From positions 18,132 through 82,131 of the forward strand of contig JBAYIQ010000004.1 in assembly GCA_041665545.1 (NCBI GenBank): a stretch of 64,000 nt of DNA, in the 5' to 3' direction. Both the position numbers and the translations under genes were made by a program. Shown here piece by piece: positions 5,790-54,714 of this stretch. The notes under the pieces were generated by a model. That model was not told the DNA's origin, did not search any database, and was given only the letters and a program-made list of their open reading frames with translations. The first letter of the stretch is position 1, and every line of letters begins with the position of its first letter. The stretch comes from Patescibacteria group bacterium. Lineage in GTDB: Bacteria; Patescibacteriota; Patescibacteriia; UBA1558; GWA2-36-10.

Positions 5790-6731
5790 TTATTTACTCC
5801 AGTCTGGACCAGATACCTGGCCCTTCTGAAGATATTTATAAGCTTGCAAGGCGGCCTTGGCTCCTTCGCCAGCCGAGATGACCACCTGCTTGTAGACAAT
5901 CTGAGAAATATCACCGGCCGCAAATATGCCGGGCACATTAGTTTCGCAATCGGCGTTAATTTTAATCTCGTGCAATTCGGTCAAGTCCAACAAATCTTTG
6001 ACCCAGTCGGTTTTGGCAATGTGGCCAATTTCTACAAATACACCGTCAACCTTTATTTCTTTATTCTCGCCCTTTGATTCGTAAATCAAGCTTTCTACTT
6101 TGGAACTGCCTTTAATTTCTTTGCTAACGGCCTCAAATAATATTTCTACCTTGGGATCATGGCTGACACGCTGAATCAAAACATCCTCACCCTTAAGTTG
6201 TGGCTGGCGTACCAAAAGATAAACCTTGGCCACAATTTTACTCAAATATTCAGCTGCATCCATAGCGGAATTTCCACCACCAACCACTACTACTGTTTTG
6301 CCTTTGTATAGCGGACCATCGCAAGTAGCGCAATAGGCCACCCCCCGACCAGTAAGCTCTTTTTCGCCAGGCACGTCTAGATTTCGAGGTGTCAGGCCAA
6401 AGGCCATGATTACTGCTTTGGTCTCAAATTTTTGATTATCGGCTGTCTGTAAAATAAAAAAATCATCTTTTTTTTCGACTCTACTTATTTCCGCTGTAAC
6501 TAGTGTGGCTCCGCTTTTTTCGGCCTGAGCCAACATCTTTTGACCCAAAACCGGTCCCTCTATTTCTTCGTAACCAGGATAATTTTCAATGCTGTTGGTC
6601 AAAGCCATTTGCCCGCCAATATCCATAGAAACTATCAGGGTTTTCAAAGCTCTTCGCGCCGCATAAATAGCGGCCGTAAGCCCTGCCGGTCCTCCGCCAA
6701 CAACCACCACGTCATATTTATTGTCCGTCAT
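5790..6731 (-). CDS. trxB: Thioredoxin-disulfide reductase
   Basis: FAD motif DVVVVGGGPAGLTAAIYAARR, redox-active CATCDG, and a second nucleotide-binding motif VVVGGGNSAMDAAEYL. Confidence 0.9.
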   Translation of the reverse strand: MTDNKYDVVVVGGGPAGLTAAIYAARRALKTLIVSMDIGGQMALTNSIENYPGYEEIEGPVLGQKMLAQAEKSGATLVTAEISRVEKKDDFFILQTADNQKFETKAVIMAFGLTPRNLDVPGEKELTGRGVAYCATCDGPLYKGKTVVVVGGGNSAMDAAEYLSKIVAKVYLLVRQPQLKGEDVLIQRVSHDPKVEILFEAVSKEIKGSSKVESLIYESKGENKEIKVDGVFVEIGHIAKTDWVKDLLDLTELHEIKINADCETNVPGIFAAGDISQIVYKQVVISAGEGAKAALQAYKYLQKGQVSGPDWSK

Positions 6732-6737
6732 AAAAAA

Positions 6738-7061
6738 TTATAATTGTTTATTAATTTTTTCTAACAAAACTTTTTTGGACTGCATACCCACCATATCCTC
6801 TACTACCTTTCCACCTTTAAAAATCTTTAAGGCCGGGATAGACATTATTTCAAACTCTTGGGACTTAAGTGGGTTTTCCTCAACATTAAATTTAGCAATT
6901 TTTATATTGCTTTTGTCTTTCAGCTCTTCGGCTAGCTGGTCAATGATTGGTCCTTGCATTTTGCAAGGCATACACCAAGAGGCCCAAAAATCCACCAAGG
7001 CCACTCCCTCAAAATTTTTTATTTCTTGATCAAAGTTTTGATCGTTTAATTCTAATGCCAT
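6738..7061 (-). CDS. trxA: Thioredoxin
   Basis: A 107 aa protein with active site WASWCMPCK, a variant of WCGPCK. It lies immediately upstream of trxB on the same strand. Confidence 0.85.
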   Translation of the reverse strand: MALELNDQNFDQEIKNFEGVALVDFWASWCMPCKMQGPIIDQLAEELKDKSNIKIAKFNVEENPLKSQEFEIMSIPALKIFKGGKVVEDMVGMQSKKVLLEKINKQL

Positions 7062-50624: not shown

Positions 50625-51113
50625 ATGGATCAAAATTTGATTGTTGTAAATGAAAATAACGAAGTTGTTAAAATAGTTGATTCAGTTGAAGTACATCATA
50701 GCAATTTATTACATCGCTCAGTACACGTTATTGTTGTTGGCAAAGGAGAAAAATTTTTTTGTCGGCAAATTAGTTCCACCAGTTCCCTTTATGCAAATTA
50801 TTGGTCAACGGCCACAGGTGCTCATATATTGGCTAATCATGAGCCACTTGAGACAGCGCAGTATTCTTTAAAAGATTTATTGGGCATATCTATGGATTTA
50901 GAATTTATTGGAGATGTACGCATTAACGATGGTGTTGAAAATGAAATAAGTTCAACATACGTGGGTTATTACGATGGGATATTTAATTTAAATAAGAGTA
51001 AGTTGACCGACGGCAAATTTTTTACCGATGAAGAATTAAGTATTCTTTTTGAGTCAGAAAAAGTTACACCACACTTAGTTAAATCAATTGAATTATATAG
51101 AAAAATTAAATAA
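50625..51113 (+). CDS. NUDIX-fold protein (IPP-isomerase-like), Nudix box degenerate
   Basis: LHRSVHVIVVGKGEKFFCRQIS...YANYWSTATGAHILANHEPLETAQYSLKDLLGI matches the Nudix-fold topology. The catalytic REx2EE positions are not conserved. Confidence 0.4.
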   Translation: MDQNLIVVNENNEVVKIVDSVEVHHSNLLHRSVHVIVVGKGEKFFCRQISSTSSLYANYWSTATGAHILANHEPLETAQYSLKDLLGISMDLEFIGDVRINDGVENEISSTYVGYYDGIFNLNKSKLTDGKFFTDEELSILFESEKVTPHLVKSIELYRKIK

Positions 51114-51121
51114 ACAAAAAT

Positions 51122-52054
51122 ATGCGTTCAGAATTTAGAAAAGATTATATTCAAGAAAAATATGTAATCATTGCTCCACGGCGGATAAGGCGCCCCAATG
51201 ATGTCAGGGTACCAGTCGATCAAACTACCAAGCAATTTGATGATGCTTGTCAGTTTTGCCCTGATCATCTGAAAGGCGAAAAACTTCTCTATCATCTTGG
51301 ACCAGCCAAAAATTGGCGCATTGCCACCAAGGCCAACAAATATCCAGTAGTGACTCTCAATAACCCCTTGGCCTATGGTCAGCAGGAAGTGGTTATAGAA
51401 ACACCAGATCATCTTAGGGAGCTTGAAGACTTGCCAGTGGAGCATTTGGCCGAGTTGCTGACAACTTATGCGGAAAGAACCAAGGCCATTACCAAAAATA
51501 AAAAAATTGAATATATTTTGATATTCAAAAATAATGGTGGCACAGCTGGCGCCTCTCTACAACACTCGCATTCGCAAATTTTTGCTACTAATTTTCTACC
51601 GCCACATTTGGCTGACAAATCACAGCGCCAGCAAGCTTATAAATTGCAAAAAGGTACTTGTGTTTATTGCGATGTAATAAAAAAAGAAAAAAAGGGTCCG
51701 CGCTTTGTCTGGCAGGACAAAAATATTATTGCCTTCACGCCTTATGCTTCGATGTTTAATTATGAAATATGGATTATGCCCAAAAGGCACATTGATAATA
51801 TTACTTTACTTACTGCCGAGGAAAAGTTATCTTGGGCTAAGATTTTAAAACACAGCTTGAAAAAAATCAGTTTGCTCAACCTGCCTTACAATTATTATTT
51901 TCATCAGGTGATTCACGATGAGGACCAGCATTTATATATGAAGATAGTGCCTCGTGGCTCGGTCTGGGCGGGAGTAGAGATTGGTTCAGGATTGATAATC
52001 AATCCAATTGCTCCAGAGGAAGCGGCTAAGTTTTATAGATTGGGATTGAAATAA
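51122..52054 (+). CDS. Galactose-1-phosphate uridylyltransferase family (GalT-like, HIT superfamily) protein
   Basis: Zinc-knuckle CQFCPDH, and the histidine motif LQHSHSQIFA (HxHxQ) as in GalT-type nucleotidyltransferases. Confidence 0.55.
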   Translation: MRSEFRKDYIQEKYVIIAPRRIRRPNDVRVPVDQTTKQFDDACQFCPDHLKGEKLLYHLGPAKNWRIATKANKYPVVTLNNPLAYGQQEVVIETPDHLRELEDLPVEHLAELLTTYAERTKAITKNKKIEYILIFKNNGGTAGASLQHSHSQIFATNFLPPHLADKSQRQQAYKLQKGTCVYCDVIKKEKKGPRFVWQDKNIIAFTPYASMFNYEIWIMPKRHIDNITLLTAEEKLSWAKILKHSLKKISLLNLPYNYYFHQVIHDEDQHLYMKIVPRGSVWAGVEIGSGLIINPIAPEEAAKFYRLGLK

Positions 52055-52221
52055 TACCGCCCATAGGGCGACCGTCCTTTGGACGGGAAAGTTGAAAGTA
52101 AAAAGTAGAAAGTTAATAGCTTTCTACTTTTTTTGGCTAATATTAGGTAAATATTTATTTAATATTATCAATAGTTATTATATAATCCTTAAAATCTATA
52201 TAATTATTTTTTTGGTATTTT

Positions 52222-52650
52222 TTATTGGTTAATATTTTGAGCAATAAATTGATAAAGCGCCATTGCAGCGTATTCTGCATAGGTATTGTTGGTGCAACTG
52301 AAGCGATAGTAATCATCGATTGATCGTATAATATTATCGGGAGCAGTAGACCCTATTCTTTTGGTCCGCTCTAAAATATAATTAAGCTTTTCAATGATTT
52401 TTTCTATAGTCGTGCCAGAGTCTTTTTCTTTTTGTAATTCAGCAGTAACTTCTTGAATAATGTTTAGATATTTTTGGTAAATTGGTTTTAAATGTTTTTC
52501 TATTAGCAAGTCTTTTTCACTCGCCTGAATCCACCCGATATCTAGAGCATAAGTAAGGCATTCTTCGTAATATGTATTTTCATCCAGGATTTTTCCCCTG
52601 TCTTCATTTTGTATTTCTGGCCATTGTCCTGGTAATCTTGTTTTTTCCAT
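52222..52650 (-). CDS. Hypothetical cytoplasmic protein (142 aa)
   Basis: The ORF is preceded by a 104 bp sequence identical to the one upstream of the 52745..53308 gene. I recognise no motifs. Confidence 0.4.
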   Translation of the reverse strand: MEKTRLPGQWPEIQNEDRGKILDENTYYEECLTYALDIGWIQASEKDLLIEKHLKPIYQKYLNIIQEVTAELQKEKDSGTTIEKIIEKLNYILERTKRIGSTAPDNIIRSIDDYYRFSCTNNTYAEYAAMALYQFIAQNINQ

Positions 52651-52745
52651 ATTTTATTATTTCACTTTTCCAAATTTCCTTTTTCCAGCTTGCACCACAT
52701 CGCCGGATTTGATGATGATATCTTTGTCCCAAGCTGATATTTTTT
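52642..52745. repeat. 104 bp perfect direct repeat, copy 1 (contains a duplicated fragment of the tyrS 3' end)
   Basis: Identical to 53300-53403. It comprises the last ~29 codons of tyrS (...SGDVVQAGKRKFGKVK*), plus the intergenic ATAAAAT and a start codon. Confidence 0.8.
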
Positions 52746-53308
52746 TATATTACCATTGCTATCCCCATAGCCATTAGAGTATTCCACCATATATATAAAT
52801 AAGCAAATCCTATTTCAGGATGCAATTCCTTATATTCTAAAAAATCATTAATAGTACTTGTATAGATGGGGTTCTGTAGAGGGGTTGTGTTATATTCAGC
52901 TAGTAGCCACACAAAAGCAATTACCCCAGCCAATAAAGATAAAAATATTATACTGTTTTTTGAAATTTTGGTTATAGATCCTAAGCCAATAAGCATAATC
53001 AATCCACCCACAAAACCAGCTACTAGGAAAGAAAAAGGTGGTTTTATAATAGCTTCAGCTATGACCACCCAAAAAGATGCATGATAAGCAATAGCGCAAC
53101 AGGCGAGCCATATTAAGGTATTCTCAGGATTCTTTTTTTCTTTTTTAATAATAAATATGGCCGGAAATATAAAAATCCCAAAAATTAATCCTGGCAATAG
53201 AGATAAGGCATAAAAGTTATGGGTAACATCAAAGAGCAGAATATAGTTAACTACTAGTGCGGACATAAGGCCAAACAGTGGCAAAATAATAAATTTTAAT
53301 TTTTCCAT
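52745..53308 (-). CDS. Hypothetical polytopic membrane protein (187 aa, about 6 TM)
   Basis: The gene is flanked by the two copies of the 104 bp direct repeat. It has a hydrophobic profile throughout. Confidence 0.45.
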   Translation of the reverse strand: MEKLKFIILPLFGLMSALVVNYILLFDVTHNFYALSLLPGLIFGIFIFPAIFIIKKEKKNPENTLIWLACCAIAYHASFWVVIAEAIIKPPFSFLVAGFVGGLIMLIGLGSITKISKNSIIFLSLLAGVIAFVWLLAEYNTTPLQNPIYTSTINDFLEYKELHPEIGFAYLYIWWNTLMAMGIAMVI

Positions 53309-53403
53309 ATTTTATTATTTCACTTTTCCAAATTTCCTTTTTCCAGCTTGCACCACATCGCCGGATTTGATGATGATATCTTTGTCCCAAGCTGATATTT
53401 TTT
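53300..53403. repeat. 104 bp perfect direct repeat, copy 2 (authentic tyrS 3' end plus downstream start region)
   Basis: Identical to 52642-52745. Confidence 0.8.
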
Positions 53404-54523
53404 CGTGGTTTAATTTAAAACCACCACCATCAATCAGGCGCCTGGCTTCACCTTTTGAATTTACTAATTTCATTTGTAATAGCAAATCAATAGGATTTAT
53501 TTTATTTTTGCCAATAATAAATTCAGGCATTTCGTCAGGATTGGCTTTTTTAGCAAAAATGTTGGTGAATTCTTGGCCAGCTTTTGTAGCCACATTTTCA
53601 CCAAAATAAATTTTTACAACTTCATTGGCTAGCTGGAATTTTATGTCGCGGGGATTTTTGCCAGCCCGCAAATCTTTAGCAAGCTGTTTTATTTCATTCA
53701 GCGGCACTCTAGTACAGAGCTCAAAGCCGGAAATAATCATACCGTCAGTCCAAGACATAATTTTGCCAAACATATCTTGAGCTGTATCTGATAGGGCGAC
53801 CATGTTGCCCTCGGATTTACCCATTTTTTTGCCACTGGTGTCAGTCAGTAGGCGCATGGTAATGACAAACTTTTCCTTGTGTTTCAGTTCTTTCATAAGA
53901 TCGCGGCCAGCCAACATATTGAAAGTCTGGTCATTGCCACCTATTTCGCCATCAACATCCATAGCCACGCAGTCATAGGCCTGCAGGACTGGATACATGA
54001 ATTCGTGTAAGTAGATCGGCTTAGCTGATTTGATGCGCTCTTGGAACATATCTCGCTCTAGCAAGCGCTGGACAGTAAAGTGTTTGGCCAAATCCATGAC
54101 TTGATTAAAATTCATTTTGCTCTGCCACTGGCTATTGAATTTTATTTCCGCCTTATTACTGCCCGAAAAGTTTATTAGTTTGCTAGCTTGATTTTTGTAG
54201 CTTTTGGCATTTGTCAAAACCTGCTCCCTAGTCAAGGCTTGGCGGGCGGCTGTTTTATCTGTCGGGTCACCAACCATGCCAGTAAAATCGCCAATCAATA
54301 ATATTATTTTATGACCCAATTCTTGGAATTGTCGGAGCTTCTCTATGGTTATGGCATGACCCAAATGCAGTGTCGGGCCAGTAGGATCAACACCCAAATA
54401 CAAGGTTAGCTGTTTGCCAGAGGACAACTGTTTTTTTAGGTATTCCTTATTAGGGTAGACATTTTCCATACCCCTTTCCAATAGTTCTTGAATTTTTGCT
54501 TGATCCGTGCTAATTTTAGCCAT
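53315..54523 (-). CDS. tyrS: Tyrosine--tRNA ligase
   Basis: Class I motifs HLGH (HIGH) and KMGKSEGN (KMSKS), and a C-terminal S4-like domain. Confidence 0.9.
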   Translation of the reverse strand: MAKISTDQAKIQELLERGMENVYPNKEYLKKQLSSGKQLTLYLGVDPTGPTLHLGHAITIEKLRQFQELGHKIILLIGDFTGMVGDPTDKTAARQALTREQVLTNAKSYKNQASKLINFSGSNKAEIKFNSQWQSKMNFNQVMDLAKHFTVQRLLERDMFQERIKSAKPIYLHEFMYPVLQAYDCVAMDVDGEIGGNDQTFNMLAGRDLMKELKHKEKFVITMRLLTDTSGKKMGKSEGNMVALSDTAQDMFGKIMSWTDGMIISGFELCTRVPLNEIKQLAKDLRAGKNPRDIKFQLANEVVKIYFGENVATKAGQEFTNIFAKKANPDEMPEFIIGKNKINPIDLLLQMKLVNSKGEARRLIDGGGFKLNHEKISAWDKDIIIKSGDVVQAGKRKFGKVK

Positions 54524-54680
54524 AGTTTCGATTTTTCTTAATTTCAGCCCGTGGAATAATCCCGCCTAAGCGGGATTAGTGCCACGTTATGATTATTAAT
54601 TATATTTTATTTTACATTACTATAAAACCCAAATTTAGCAAAATAGTGTTCAGTGGCACTATTCCACGGGCTAAAGTATA

Positions 54681-54714
54681 TTCAAATTATAGCTTATTTT
54701 TGCTATAATTCAAA
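54681..54714. promoter_or_regulatory. Overlapping divergent promoters for tyrS (-) and the PBP gene (+)
   Basis: Plus strand reads TTCAAA-17-TATAAT (54681-54709), with a about 13 nt leader to the ATG at 54729. Minus strand reads TTGAAT-16-TATAAT (54687-54714). Confidence 0.4.

What the first reader, a model, noticed from the sequence alone, without database searches (positions are those of the whole stretch)
52222..53403. 104 bp perfect direct repeat containing a tyrS 3' fragment brackets an inserted membrane-protein gene
The sequence 52642-52745 is identical to 53300-53403. The latter is the genuine end of tyrS (its last ~29 codons) plus the 7 bp spacer and the start codon of the next gene. 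Two different genes therefore begin with exactly the same upstream region: a 187 aa polytopic membrane protein and a 142 aa cytoplasmic protein. A dead tyrS tail fragment sits between them. This is the footprint of a gene cassette inserted or exchanged by recombination at the tyrS 3' end, an orphan-module-like arrangement. The 187/142 aa pair could be a variable accessory cassette, for example an effector and immunity pair or a phage-defence pair. Recombination between the repeats would delete the membrane-protein gene cleanly.
Basis: seen in the sequence. Interest (0 to 1): 0.6.

Follow-up and report, generated by a model that had tools for sequence, protein, structure and literature searches.

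The report
Gene-insertion scar behind tyrS
A small membrane-protein gene was recently spliced in directly behind the essential tyrS gene of an uncultured Patescibacteria bacterium, duplicating 104 bases of the tyrS end; this is an ordinary recombination scar at a spot where close relatives carry many different genes, not a toxin or defence system.

Summary
The 104-nt perfect direct repeat is real. It is the only exact repeat of 25 nt or more in the window. Independent k=31 assemblies of two sequencing runs break exactly at its edges, and two deposited MAGs carry the same gene order.

On the minus strand the order is tyrS, 187-aa six-helix membrane ORF, dead tyrS tail, 142-aa ORF. The closest relative, L007, has tyrS followed directly by the 142-aa gene, with no repeat. 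Deleting one 658-nt unit from the window reproduces that layout.

The position just after the tyrS stop codon is a hotspot. Relatives with about 88–93% tyrS nucleotide identity show six states: empty, 142, 187+142, a methyltransferase, a nucleotidyltransferase, and a 109-aa orphan plus a TPR gene. Two further scars are present:
- a 69-nt methyltransferase 3' remnant after the 142-aa gene;
- a decayed second tyrS end in L085.

The best explanation is recombination anchored in the tyrS 3' end: insertion-duplication by single crossover, or homology-facilitated illegitimate recombination, with serial displacement of older cargo.

The effector/immunity or defence-pair idea is not supported. The two genes do not co-occur elsewhere and match no known family. 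This is a known kind of event and of modest interest.

The parts
53315..54523 (-). tyrS, tyrosine--tRNA ligase, 402 aa, intact. Its last 28 codons lie inside repeat copy A.
   Evidence: Pfam tRNA-synt_1b E=5e-72, plus SYY_C-terminal and S4. NCBI name 'tyrosine--tRNA ligase'.
53300..53403 (-). Repeat copy A: the functional tyrS tail, stop TAA, 6-nt spacer TAAAAT and ATGGAAAAA of the 187-aa ORF.
   Evidence: Identical to 52642-52745.
52745..53308 (-). Inserted cargo: a 187-aa membrane protein with six predicted membrane helices. It has no promoter of its own and is low in GC (32.6%, GC3 27%).
   Evidence: ORF. Absent from L007, L002, L080, L083 and L085. One close homolog, P0002, at 58% identity. 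17 distant relatives, besides the query itself, by HMMER. AlphaFold2 pLDDT 85.8 with six long helices. GC values. No promoter-like site on the minus strand between tyrS and the slot genes.
52642..52745 (-). Repeat copy B. It holds the displaced, dead tyrS tail fragment (coding part 52660-52745, stop 52657-52659), the spacer, and ATGGAAAAA of the 142-aa ORF.
   Evidence: In-frame stop codons lie upstream and there is no start codon.
52222..52650 (-). The resident 142-aa soluble all-helical protein, in an orphan family with 8 members. This is the older occupant of the slot.
   Evidence: Ortholog at 89% aa identity directly behind tyrS in L007. Family. AlphaFold2 pLDDT 70.8, all helices.
52155..52223 (-). 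3' remnant (22 codons plus stop, KKYQKNNYIDFKDYIITIDNIK*) of a SAM-methyltransferase gene. That gene occupies the slot intact in relative L080. This is the scar of an earlier displacement.
   Evidence: 94% nt identity over 137 nt to the L080 methyltransferase end plus intergenic region. Translation. Pfam methyltransferase domains in L080.
52056..52134 (.). Hairpins between the convergent tyrS operon and the galT-like gene. GTAGAAAG-loop-CTTTCTAC at 52105-52127 is flanked by A and T runs. GTCGCCC...GGGCGGT lies at 52056-52072. These are the likely terminators of both transcription units and the conserved right flank of the slot.
   Evidence: Sequence. Terminator-like site. Conserved in L002, L080 and L083.
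54599..54713 (-). Promoter-like sites upstream of tyrS. These are consensus matches only, but they are the only candidates that could drive tyrS, the 187-aa gene and the 142-aa gene.
   Evidence: 10 of 12 matches at 54713->54686 and 54626->54599.
51122..52054 (+). Convergent galT-like (GalP_UDP_transf/HIT) gene. It is the conserved right border of the variable slot.
   Evidence: Pfam. Present next to the slot in L002, L007, L004, L080, L083 and L085.

Best explanation
This is a recent insertion-duplication at a recombination hotspot.

Starting state. In this Patescibacteria lineage the position just after the tyrS stop codon holds promoterless accessory genes. They are probably read from the tyrS transcript (inferred). 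The ancestor of the window genome had tyrS, a 6-nt spacer, then the 142-aa gene. That gene had itself displaced most of an older methyltransferase gene.

The event. A 554-nt segment then entered. It is exactly the 187-aa ORF from its fourth codon to its stop. Entry was by recombination that used the tyrS 3' end as homology. Two routes give this product:
- a single (Campbell-type) crossover of a small circularised fragment carrying the tyrS tail plus the 187-aa gene;
- an incoming linear fragment (tyrS...tail-187) with a homologous left crossover and an illegitimate right join in the A-run AAAAAATAT at the start of the repeat.
Because the right join lies upstream of the end of the homology, the tail is duplicated instead of resident DNA being deleted.

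Consequences. Both genes keep the same upstream 95 nt. The displaced tail is a by-product with no function. RecA-type recombination between the copies would remove the 187-aa gene and restore the L007-like state.

Shown: the repeat, the empty-site relative, the hotspot and the remnants. Inferred: the recombination route, the donor and co-transcription.
For: - The repeat is exact and unique in the window.
- Both junctions are present in two independent k=31 assemblies, and the gene order is the same in two MAG records.
- L007 represents the one-copy, no-insert state, and the window minus 658 nt is colinear with it.
- The two copies differ at 0 of 104 positions, whereas the window and L007 differ at 11 of 104. 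The event is therefore young relative to that split, or the copies are kept identical by gene conversion.
- The hotspot shows six cargo states at about 88-93% tyrS nt identity. Two different states co-occur in the same JGI samples.
- In the window, L007 and L080 the cargo starts right after a tyrS stop plus TAAAAT or TAAAAAAT spacer. In L083 and L085 the spacer is different (15 nt and 3 nt).
- There are two more scars of the same polarity. One is the methyltransferase 3' remnant directly after the 142-aa stop, joined in an A-run (AATAAAAAATA). The other is a second, decayed tyrS end (14 nt exact, about 30 nt recognisable) downstream of the 109-aa gene in L085.
- The cargo genes have low GC3: 27% against about 42% for tyrS and the window ORFs.
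- No minus-strand promoter-like site lies between tyrS and the slot genes.
- Experimental precedent exists. Single crossover of recircularised DNA in E. coli gave duplications of 109-950 bp of the homologous segment. HFIR gives insertion plus deletion, usually with 3-10 bp microhomology (PMC3240628).
- A serial-displacement model has been proposed for T6SS effector/immunity arrays (PMC5361080).
- Natural competence has been shown in Saccharibacteria (PMC10187176 and PMC10633639).
Against: - No donor was found. The only close 187 homolog is 58% identical and does not sit next to tyrS. A tyrS-187 donor arrangement is therefore hypothetical.
- The native start of the 187 family is also ATGGAAAAA (P0002 has an internal MEKIKF). 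The left edge of the repeat could therefore be a 9-nt microhomology joint rather than a homologous crossover.
- Among 68 related tyrS loci, none has a comparable duplication of the tail. The only other trace is the short decayed copy in L085, a locus not among those 68, so long duplication is not the regular outcome.
- Read-level copy number and population heterogeneity could not be checked.
- Competence has not been shown for this lineage.
Confidence: 0.7

Rival explanations
1. Replicative template switching or double illegitimate joining. The 187-aa ORF was copied from an unrelated locus. Copying entered at the shared ATGGAAAAA and returned at the A-run 104 nt behind, so both repeat copies derive from the recipient itself.
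For: - ATGGAAAAA is native to both gene families.
- The upstream AATAAA..TATGGAAAAA is also similar in L073.
- This route explains 100% identity of the copies without needing an identical donor.
- The insert is exactly one ORF.
Against: - It needs two microhomology joints in one event.
- The other scars in the clade look like events anchored on one side.
- It cannot be told apart from the main model without the donor sequence.
Confidence: 0.17
2. Site-specific integration of a mobile cassette whose attachment site is the tyrS 3' end. This would resemble prophage e14, which is flanked by icd and the icdC fragment, or an integron cassette, with a recombinase acting in trans.
For: - A displaced 3' fragment of a housekeeping gene is the classic mark of such elements (PMC13626634).
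- Relatives L003 and L011 carry a tyrosine recombinase 0.8-1.9 kb downstream of tyrS.
- Many different cargos occupy one site.
Against: - The 554-nt insert holds only the ORF.
- The window gave no tblastn match to the integrase of L003 and L011 (best E 0.47).
- The repeat has no attC-like structure: the fold z-score is -0.11, and no inverted repeat of 20 nt or more lies within the repeat.
- Duplication lengths differ between events: 104 nt, about 30 nt, or a deletion instead. That fits homology or microhomology better than a fixed core site.
Confidence: 0.06
3. Assembly artefact or a mixture. Examples are two strain variants chained together, a free 658-nt circle, or a tandem array collapsed to one unit.
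For: - These are metagenome-assembled genomes.
- The repeat forms a loop in a de Bruijn graph, and k=31 graphs cannot resolve it.
- Strains with different cargos do co-occur in other samples.
Against: - The joint from the 187 stop into the interior of tyrS shares only an A-run with other sequence, so k-mer overlap cannot create it.
- Both boundaries are graph branch points in two runs.
- Two MAG records show the same order.
- 104 nt is shorter than a typical read or the largest k, so assemblers can span it (general knowledge).
Confidence: 0.04
4. The 187-aa and 142-aa genes form a functional two-gene accessory module, either effector/immunity or phage defence, and the tyrS fragment marks an orphan module array.
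For: - Both are small, low-GC, lineage-restricted genes in a variable slot.
- Other cargos include a nucleotidyltransferase and a methyltransferase with weak PADLOC hits.
Against: - The two genes never co-occur elsewhere.
- The 142-aa gene was in place before the 187-aa gene arrived (L007).
- There are no credible PADLOC, Pfam or NCBIfam hits; the best PADLOC E-values are 0.003-0.009.
- Structure searches are uninformative.
- Neither protein is found in phage genomes.
Confidence: 0.03

Closest known systems
Insertion-duplication by single (Campbell-type) crossover of a circular or recircularised DNA that carries a short stretch of chromosomal homology
   Same: The insert is flanked by two identical direct copies of the homologous segment. 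Experimental duplications of 109-950 bp are reported (PMC3240628). Recombination between the copies reverses the event.
   Different: This is a natural event in an uncultured Patescibacteria genome. The unit is tiny (658 nt) and holds exactly one ORF. The circular intermediate is inferred, not observed.
Homology-facilitated illegitimate recombination with serial displacement, as proposed for V. cholerae T6SS effector/immunity arrays and for Rhs/CDI orphan modules (PMC5361080)
   Same: A conserved upstream gene acts as the anchor. New cargo enters next to it and older cargo is pushed downstream, leaving 3' remnants. Here these are the methyltransferase remnant and the tyrS tail copy. Joints lie in short A-rich microhomologies.
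   Different: The anchor is a housekeeping tRNA synthetase, not a toxin gene. No toxin/immunity logic is visible. In the 187 event the illegitimate joint fell inside the anchor, which gave a duplication rather than the usual deletion.
Integrative elements that target the 3' end of a gene and carry a replacement end, such as prophage e14 between icd and the icdC fragment (PMC13626634)
   Same: An intact housekeeping gene lies on one side and a dead C-terminal fragment of it on the other side of the inserted DNA. Excision fuses the two copies.
   Different: There is no integrase and no element-like content. The copies are 100% identical over their whole length rather than diverged arms around a core.
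Integron gene cassettes
   Same: Promoterless single-ORF units accumulate behind a fixed point and appear to depend on upstream transcription. Newer units sit closest to that point.
   Different: No IntI and no attC were found.

Membership tests
Campbell-type insertion-duplication | The insert is flanked by identical direct repeats that equal one contiguous segment of the uninterrupted target | tested here: met
   104 of 104 nt identical. L007 shows the uninterrupted target, and the window minus 658 nt is colinear with it.
Campbell-type insertion-duplication | A circular intermediate that carries the homology | not testable with these tools
   This needs read-level data or outward-facing PCR.
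Homology-facilitated illegitimate recombination | A homologous anchor on one side and, on the other, an illegitimate joint that usually shows 3-10 bp microhomology | tested here: inconclusive
   The candidate joint lies in the A-run (TAAAAAAATATC against GAAAAAATATC). The donor is unknown, so microhomology cannot be measured.
Homology-facilitated illegitimate recombination | Insertion coupled to deletion of resident DNA | tested here: not met
   Not met for the 187 event, which is the finding under test: it gave a duplication and no deletion. The older 142 event does meet the feature, because the 5' part of the methyltransferase gene is gone and 69 nt of its 3' end remain.
Site-specific integrative element (e14/icd type) | A recombinase encoded by the element or next to it | tested here: not met
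   The insert is one ORF with no Pfam hit. tblastn with the clade's integrase found nothing in the window.
Integron cassette | An attC imperfect inverted repeat at the cassette end, and an IntI integrase | tested here: not met
   No inverted repeat lies within the repeat or at the cassette ends. The fold z-score is -0.11. No integrase was found.
Polymorphic-toxin orphan module array (Rhs/CDI/T6SS) | The anchor gene encodes a toxin with a constant N-terminal part and a variable C-terminal domain, and each module carries a cognate immunity gene | tested here: not met
   The anchor is tyrS. The fragment is identical to the tyrS tail rather than an alternative C-terminal domain. No toxin or immunity family hits were found.
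Known anti-phage defence systems (PADLOC) | A significant match of the proteins to a defence family model | tested here: not met
   The best E-values are 0.0026-0.0085, over partial stretches.
ECF-transporter S-component (a lead for the 187-aa protein) | The six-helix S-component fold and its sequence family | tested here: inconclusive

The most novel reading that the evidence does not exclude
The tyrS stop-codon region of this Patescibacteria lineage may be a dedicated gene-capture platform that needs no recombinase. Promoterless single-ORF cassettes would be repeatedly captured behind an essential, constantly expressed gene by recombination anchored in its 3' end. Each would inherit the same translation-start context, and older cassettes would be pushed downstream. 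That would be an integron-like way of sampling accessory genes in very small genomes.
Probability: 0.1. Interest if true: 0.6.

Novelty: new member of a known kind. Interest (0 to 1): 0.3.

Why it matters
The locus is an unusually clean natural record of how a single gene enters a tiny Patescibacteria genome. It shows the empty site, the filled site, the exact joints and older scars, all at one hotspot. This gives a concrete and testable case for how such bacteria, some of which are known to be naturally competent, gain and lose accessory genes behind essential operons. It does not reveal a new type of system. The functions of the 187-aa and 142-aa proteins remain unknown.

Tried and rejected
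- Exact scan of JGI metagenome contigs for the repeat core: 0 hits.
- Scan of the same collection for relatives of the 187-aa protein: none.
- Viral contigs for the 142 family: none.
- Phage genomes by tblastn, both proteins: none.
- Exact look-up of the 187-aa and tyrS proteins in the contig index: not on record. The source contig itself could not be re-read there.
- Pfam, NCBIfam, PADLOC and PDB sequence searches for both proteins gave only sub-threshold noise.
- I first read the sequence after the 142-aa stop as a decayed tyrS tail. Alignment against shuffles rejected that for the window's own tail and for L007's. L080 then showed it is a methyltransferase 3' remnant.
- I considered that the KIK* end of L002 tyrS is a deletion chimera. 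L085 has the same end on an intact locus, so the idea is unsupported.
- A structured RNA or attC-like element in the repeat was rejected (z = -0.11). Rfam finds only one tRNA in the window.
- A search for tail duplications in 68 other tyrS loci found none of note.
- A shared 10-mer, AAAAAATATC, lies at the 187/tail joint and at the site in the L080 methyltransferase gene that corresponds to the 142/methyltransferase joint. It looked like a possible signal. However, AAAAAATAT is common in this genome (39 copies in 64 kb), so I treat it as microhomology only.

Full report
**Observation**

Window 52642-52745 and 53300-53403 are identical over 104 nt, and identity ends abruptly on both sides. No other exact direct repeat of 25 nt or more exists in the 64 kb window. 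The repeat finder reports the pair as 112 nt at 97%.

All relevant genes lie on the minus strand:
- tyrS at 54523..53315, 402 aa, Pfam tRNA-synt_1b E=5e-72 plus S4;
- a 187-aa ORF at 53308..52745;
- a 142-aa ORF at 52650..52222;
- then hairpins and a convergent galT-like gene at 51122-52054.

Each repeat copy contains the following:
- 28 tyrS codons (KISAWDKDIIIKSGDVVQAGKRKFGKVK);
- the stop TAA;
- ATGGAAAAA, the first three codons of the ORF that follows.

The second tail copy has stop codons upstream in its frame and no start codon, so it is dead.

**Is it an artefact?**

The organism is a Patescibacteria MAG (NCBI tags WCV69_03205/03210). Logan assemblies use k=31 and break at every branch of the graph.
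- Contigs from two runs (SRR6484324, SRR18595301) start at window 53374, which is 30 nt inside the repeat on the tyrS-body side.
- A contig of SRR6484324 ends at 52671, which is 30 nt inside the repeat on the 142-aa side.
- The two tyrS-side contigs match the window with 0 mismatches, and the ends of the 142-side contig match it exactly.

Both repeat boundaries are therefore true branch points in the reads. The joint from the 187 stop into the interior of tyrS shares only an A-run with other sequence, so k-mer overlap cannot have created it.

The 142-aa, 187-aa and tyrS proteins carry consecutive accessions in two NCBI MAG records. What I could not test is copy number, and whether cells without the insert coexist with those that have it.

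**Comparison with relatives**

A genome scan with tyrS gave 71 loci.
- L007 (tyrS 95% aa, 89.6% nt) has tyrS, the same TAAAAT spacer, a 142-aa ortholog (89% aa), then galT. It has no 187-aa gene and no repeat.
- Removing one 658-nt unit from the window gives a sequence colinear with L007.
- L002 (93% aa) has tyrS followed directly by the terminator and galT.

Further members of the 90% tyrS cluster show more states:
- L080: a 260-aa SAM-methyltransferase;
- L083 and L084: a 253-aa NTP_transf_2 protein;
- L085 and L086: a 109-aa orphan plus a 524-aa TPR protein on the other strand.

The last two states come from the same two JGI samples. More distant relatives (75-80% tyrS identity) carry DUF1801 proteins, a Na/Ca exchanger, or small membrane or orphan ORFs. 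The position right after the tyrS stop is therefore a hotspot.

In the window, L007 and L080 three different genes start after nearly the same AAATAATAAAA(AA)T spacer. In L083 and L085 the spacer differs.

The cargo genes are low in GC. The 187-aa gene is 32.6% (GC3 27%) and the 142-aa gene is 33.6% (GC3 27%). tyrS is 40.5% (GC3 42%) and the window ORFs average 40.5% (GC3 42%).

No promoter-like site on the minus strand lies between tyrS and the slot genes. Such sites lie upstream of tyrS. Co-transcription with tyrS is inferred from this.

**Older scars at the same site**

- The 69 nt directly after the 142-aa stop (52155-52223) encode KKYQKNNYIDFKDYIITIDNIK*. This is the C-terminus of the L080 methyltransferase. 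Identity is 94% nt over 137 nt when the intergenic region is included. L007 has the same remnant. The 142-aa gene therefore replaced the 5' part of a methyltransferase gene, and the joint lies in an A-run (AATAAAAAATA).
- L085 carries a second, decayed tyrS end about 70 nt after its 109-aa gene: AAGATTAAATAAAT exact, about 30 nt recognisable. The sequence that follows tyrS in the empty site of L002 comes next.
- These scars have the same polarity as the 104-nt repeat. New DNA enters next to tyrS and older DNA is pushed downstream.
- None of 68 related tyrS loci has a comparable duplication of the tail. L085 was fetched later and was not among them. A duplication as long as the window's is therefore the exception.

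**Mechanism**

The two copies differ at 0 of 104 positions, while the window and L007 differ at 11 of 104. Either the event is young relative to that split or gene conversion keeps the copies identical.

A flanking duplication of the homologous segment is the known product of a single crossover between the chromosome and a circular or recircularised molecule carrying that segment. Duplications of 109-950 bp were obtained in E. coli (PMC3240628). That paper also summarises homology-facilitated illegitimate recombination (HFIR): one homologous end and one illegitimate end, usually with 3-10 bp microhomology and a deletion.
- The 142/methyltransferase scar fits HFIR as usually described.
- The 187 event fits the same process if the illegitimate joint landed inside the anchor, at AAAAAATAT at the 5' edge of the repeat.
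- It fits a Campbell-type integration of a 658-nt circle equally well.

A serial-displacement model of this kind has been proposed for T6SS effector/immunity arrays and Rhs orphans (PMC5361080). Natural competence is documented in Saccharibacteria (PMC10187176 and PMC10633639), which makes DNA uptake a plausible route. It is not shown for this lineage.

One open point remains. The only close 187 homolog (P0002, 58% aa, 71% nt) contains an internal MEKIKF encoded by ATGGAAAAA, and it lies behind an unrelated 471-aa gene. The left edge of the repeat may therefore be a 9-nt microhomology joint. In that case a double illegitimate or template-switch event, with both copies derived from the recipient, is a serious alternative. 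It would also explain the perfect identity of the copies. The donor is needed to decide.

A site-specific route (e14/icd-icdC type, PMC13626634; or integron type) is unlikely for these reasons:
- the insert is a bare ORF;
- the window shows no match to the tyrosine recombinase found near tyrS in L003 and L011;
- the repeat has no structure (z = -0.11);
- the scars differ in length.

**What the genes are**

The 142-aa protein belongs to an 8-member family found only in uncultured bacteria. Its members sit in varied contexts, after secA or after a DUF2196 gene. The model is all-helical (pLDDT 70.8) and has no informative structural match.

Neither protein matches PADLOC or NCBIfam models credibly, and neither occurs in phage genomes. 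The two genes do not co-occur anywhere else. The effector/immunity or defence-pair reading therefore has no support.

**Verdict**

The reading "cassette inserted by recombination at the tyrS 3' end" is supported, and it extends to a hotspot with serial displacement. The functional speculation is not supported. This is a new instance of a known kind of event, insertion-duplication or HFIR at an integration hotspot. It is useful as a clean natural example in Patescibacteria but not surprising. Interest 0.3.

Noticed in passing
window 52155-52223 (-): A 69-nt 3' remnant of a SAM-methyltransferase gene lies directly after the 142-aa stop codon. The gene is intact in relative L080. It shows that the 142-aa gene itself displaced an earlier occupant of the slot.
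   Followed up: yes
window 50625-51113 (+): There is a second variable slot between the glycogen-synthase-like gene and the galT-like gene. The window and L080 carry a 162-aa orphan there (GC 31.5%, no Pfam or PADLOC hit). L002 and L083 carry an 85-aa GIY-YIG protein. L007 has nothing. A shared 9-mer, AAAAATTAA, sits at both edges of the 162-aa gene, but it could be chance.
   Followed up: partly
L085 1690-1760: A decayed second copy of the tyrS 3' end (14 nt exact, about 30 nt recognisable) lies downstream of the 109-aa cargo gene. The empty-site sequence ATATTTACC... follows it. This is an older, shorter version of the window's duplication.
   Followed up: partly
L003 7028-7894 (-), L011 2566-3432 (-): A 288-aa tyrosine recombinase (Phage_integrase plus SAM-like N-terminal domain), 90% identical between the two loci, lies 0.8-1.9 kb downstream of tyrS in these relatives at about 80% tyrS identity. 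No att-like repeat of the tyrS tail was found in the flanks available.
   Followed up: partly
L083/L084 and L085/L086 (JGI samples 3300037487 and 3300037492): Two strains whose tyrS proteins fall in the same 90% cluster co-occur in the same two metagenomes with different cargo behind tyrS: a nucleotidyltransferase in one, and a 109-aa orphan plus a TPR protein in the other.
   Followed up: partly
L007 about 6720-6790; L085 about 1745-1790: GC-rich palindromic inserts (for example ACCCCCTATTTTTCTCCCCCTAATTTAGGGGGAG... in L007 and ACCCCCGTGAACAGTTCGACTGTTCACGGGGGT in L085) replace or interrupt the AT-rich terminator hairpin seen in the window, L002, L080 and L083. They could be small hairpin elements.
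   Followed up: no
window 54543-54563 and 54655-54675: A 21-nt inverted repeat (86% complementary, arms 91 nt apart) lies in the divergent intergenic region between tyrS and the PBP1A-like gene. Rfam at gathering threshold finds nothing there.
   Followed up: no
whole window: AAAAAATAT occurs 39 times, against 6.3 expected from shuffles. A6-7TAT runs sit at the 187/tail joint, at the site in the L080 methyltransferase gene that corresponds to the 142/methyltransferase joint, and in the L080 tyrS-cargo spacer. This is a possible preferred microhomology for illegitimate joints in this genome.
   Followed up: partly
window 52205-52220 (-) versus L007 about 6644: A 10-nt indel (AAATACCAAA) between A-runs distinguishes the window from L007 just after the 142-aa stop. 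It is consistent with slippage between A-runs.
   Followed up: no
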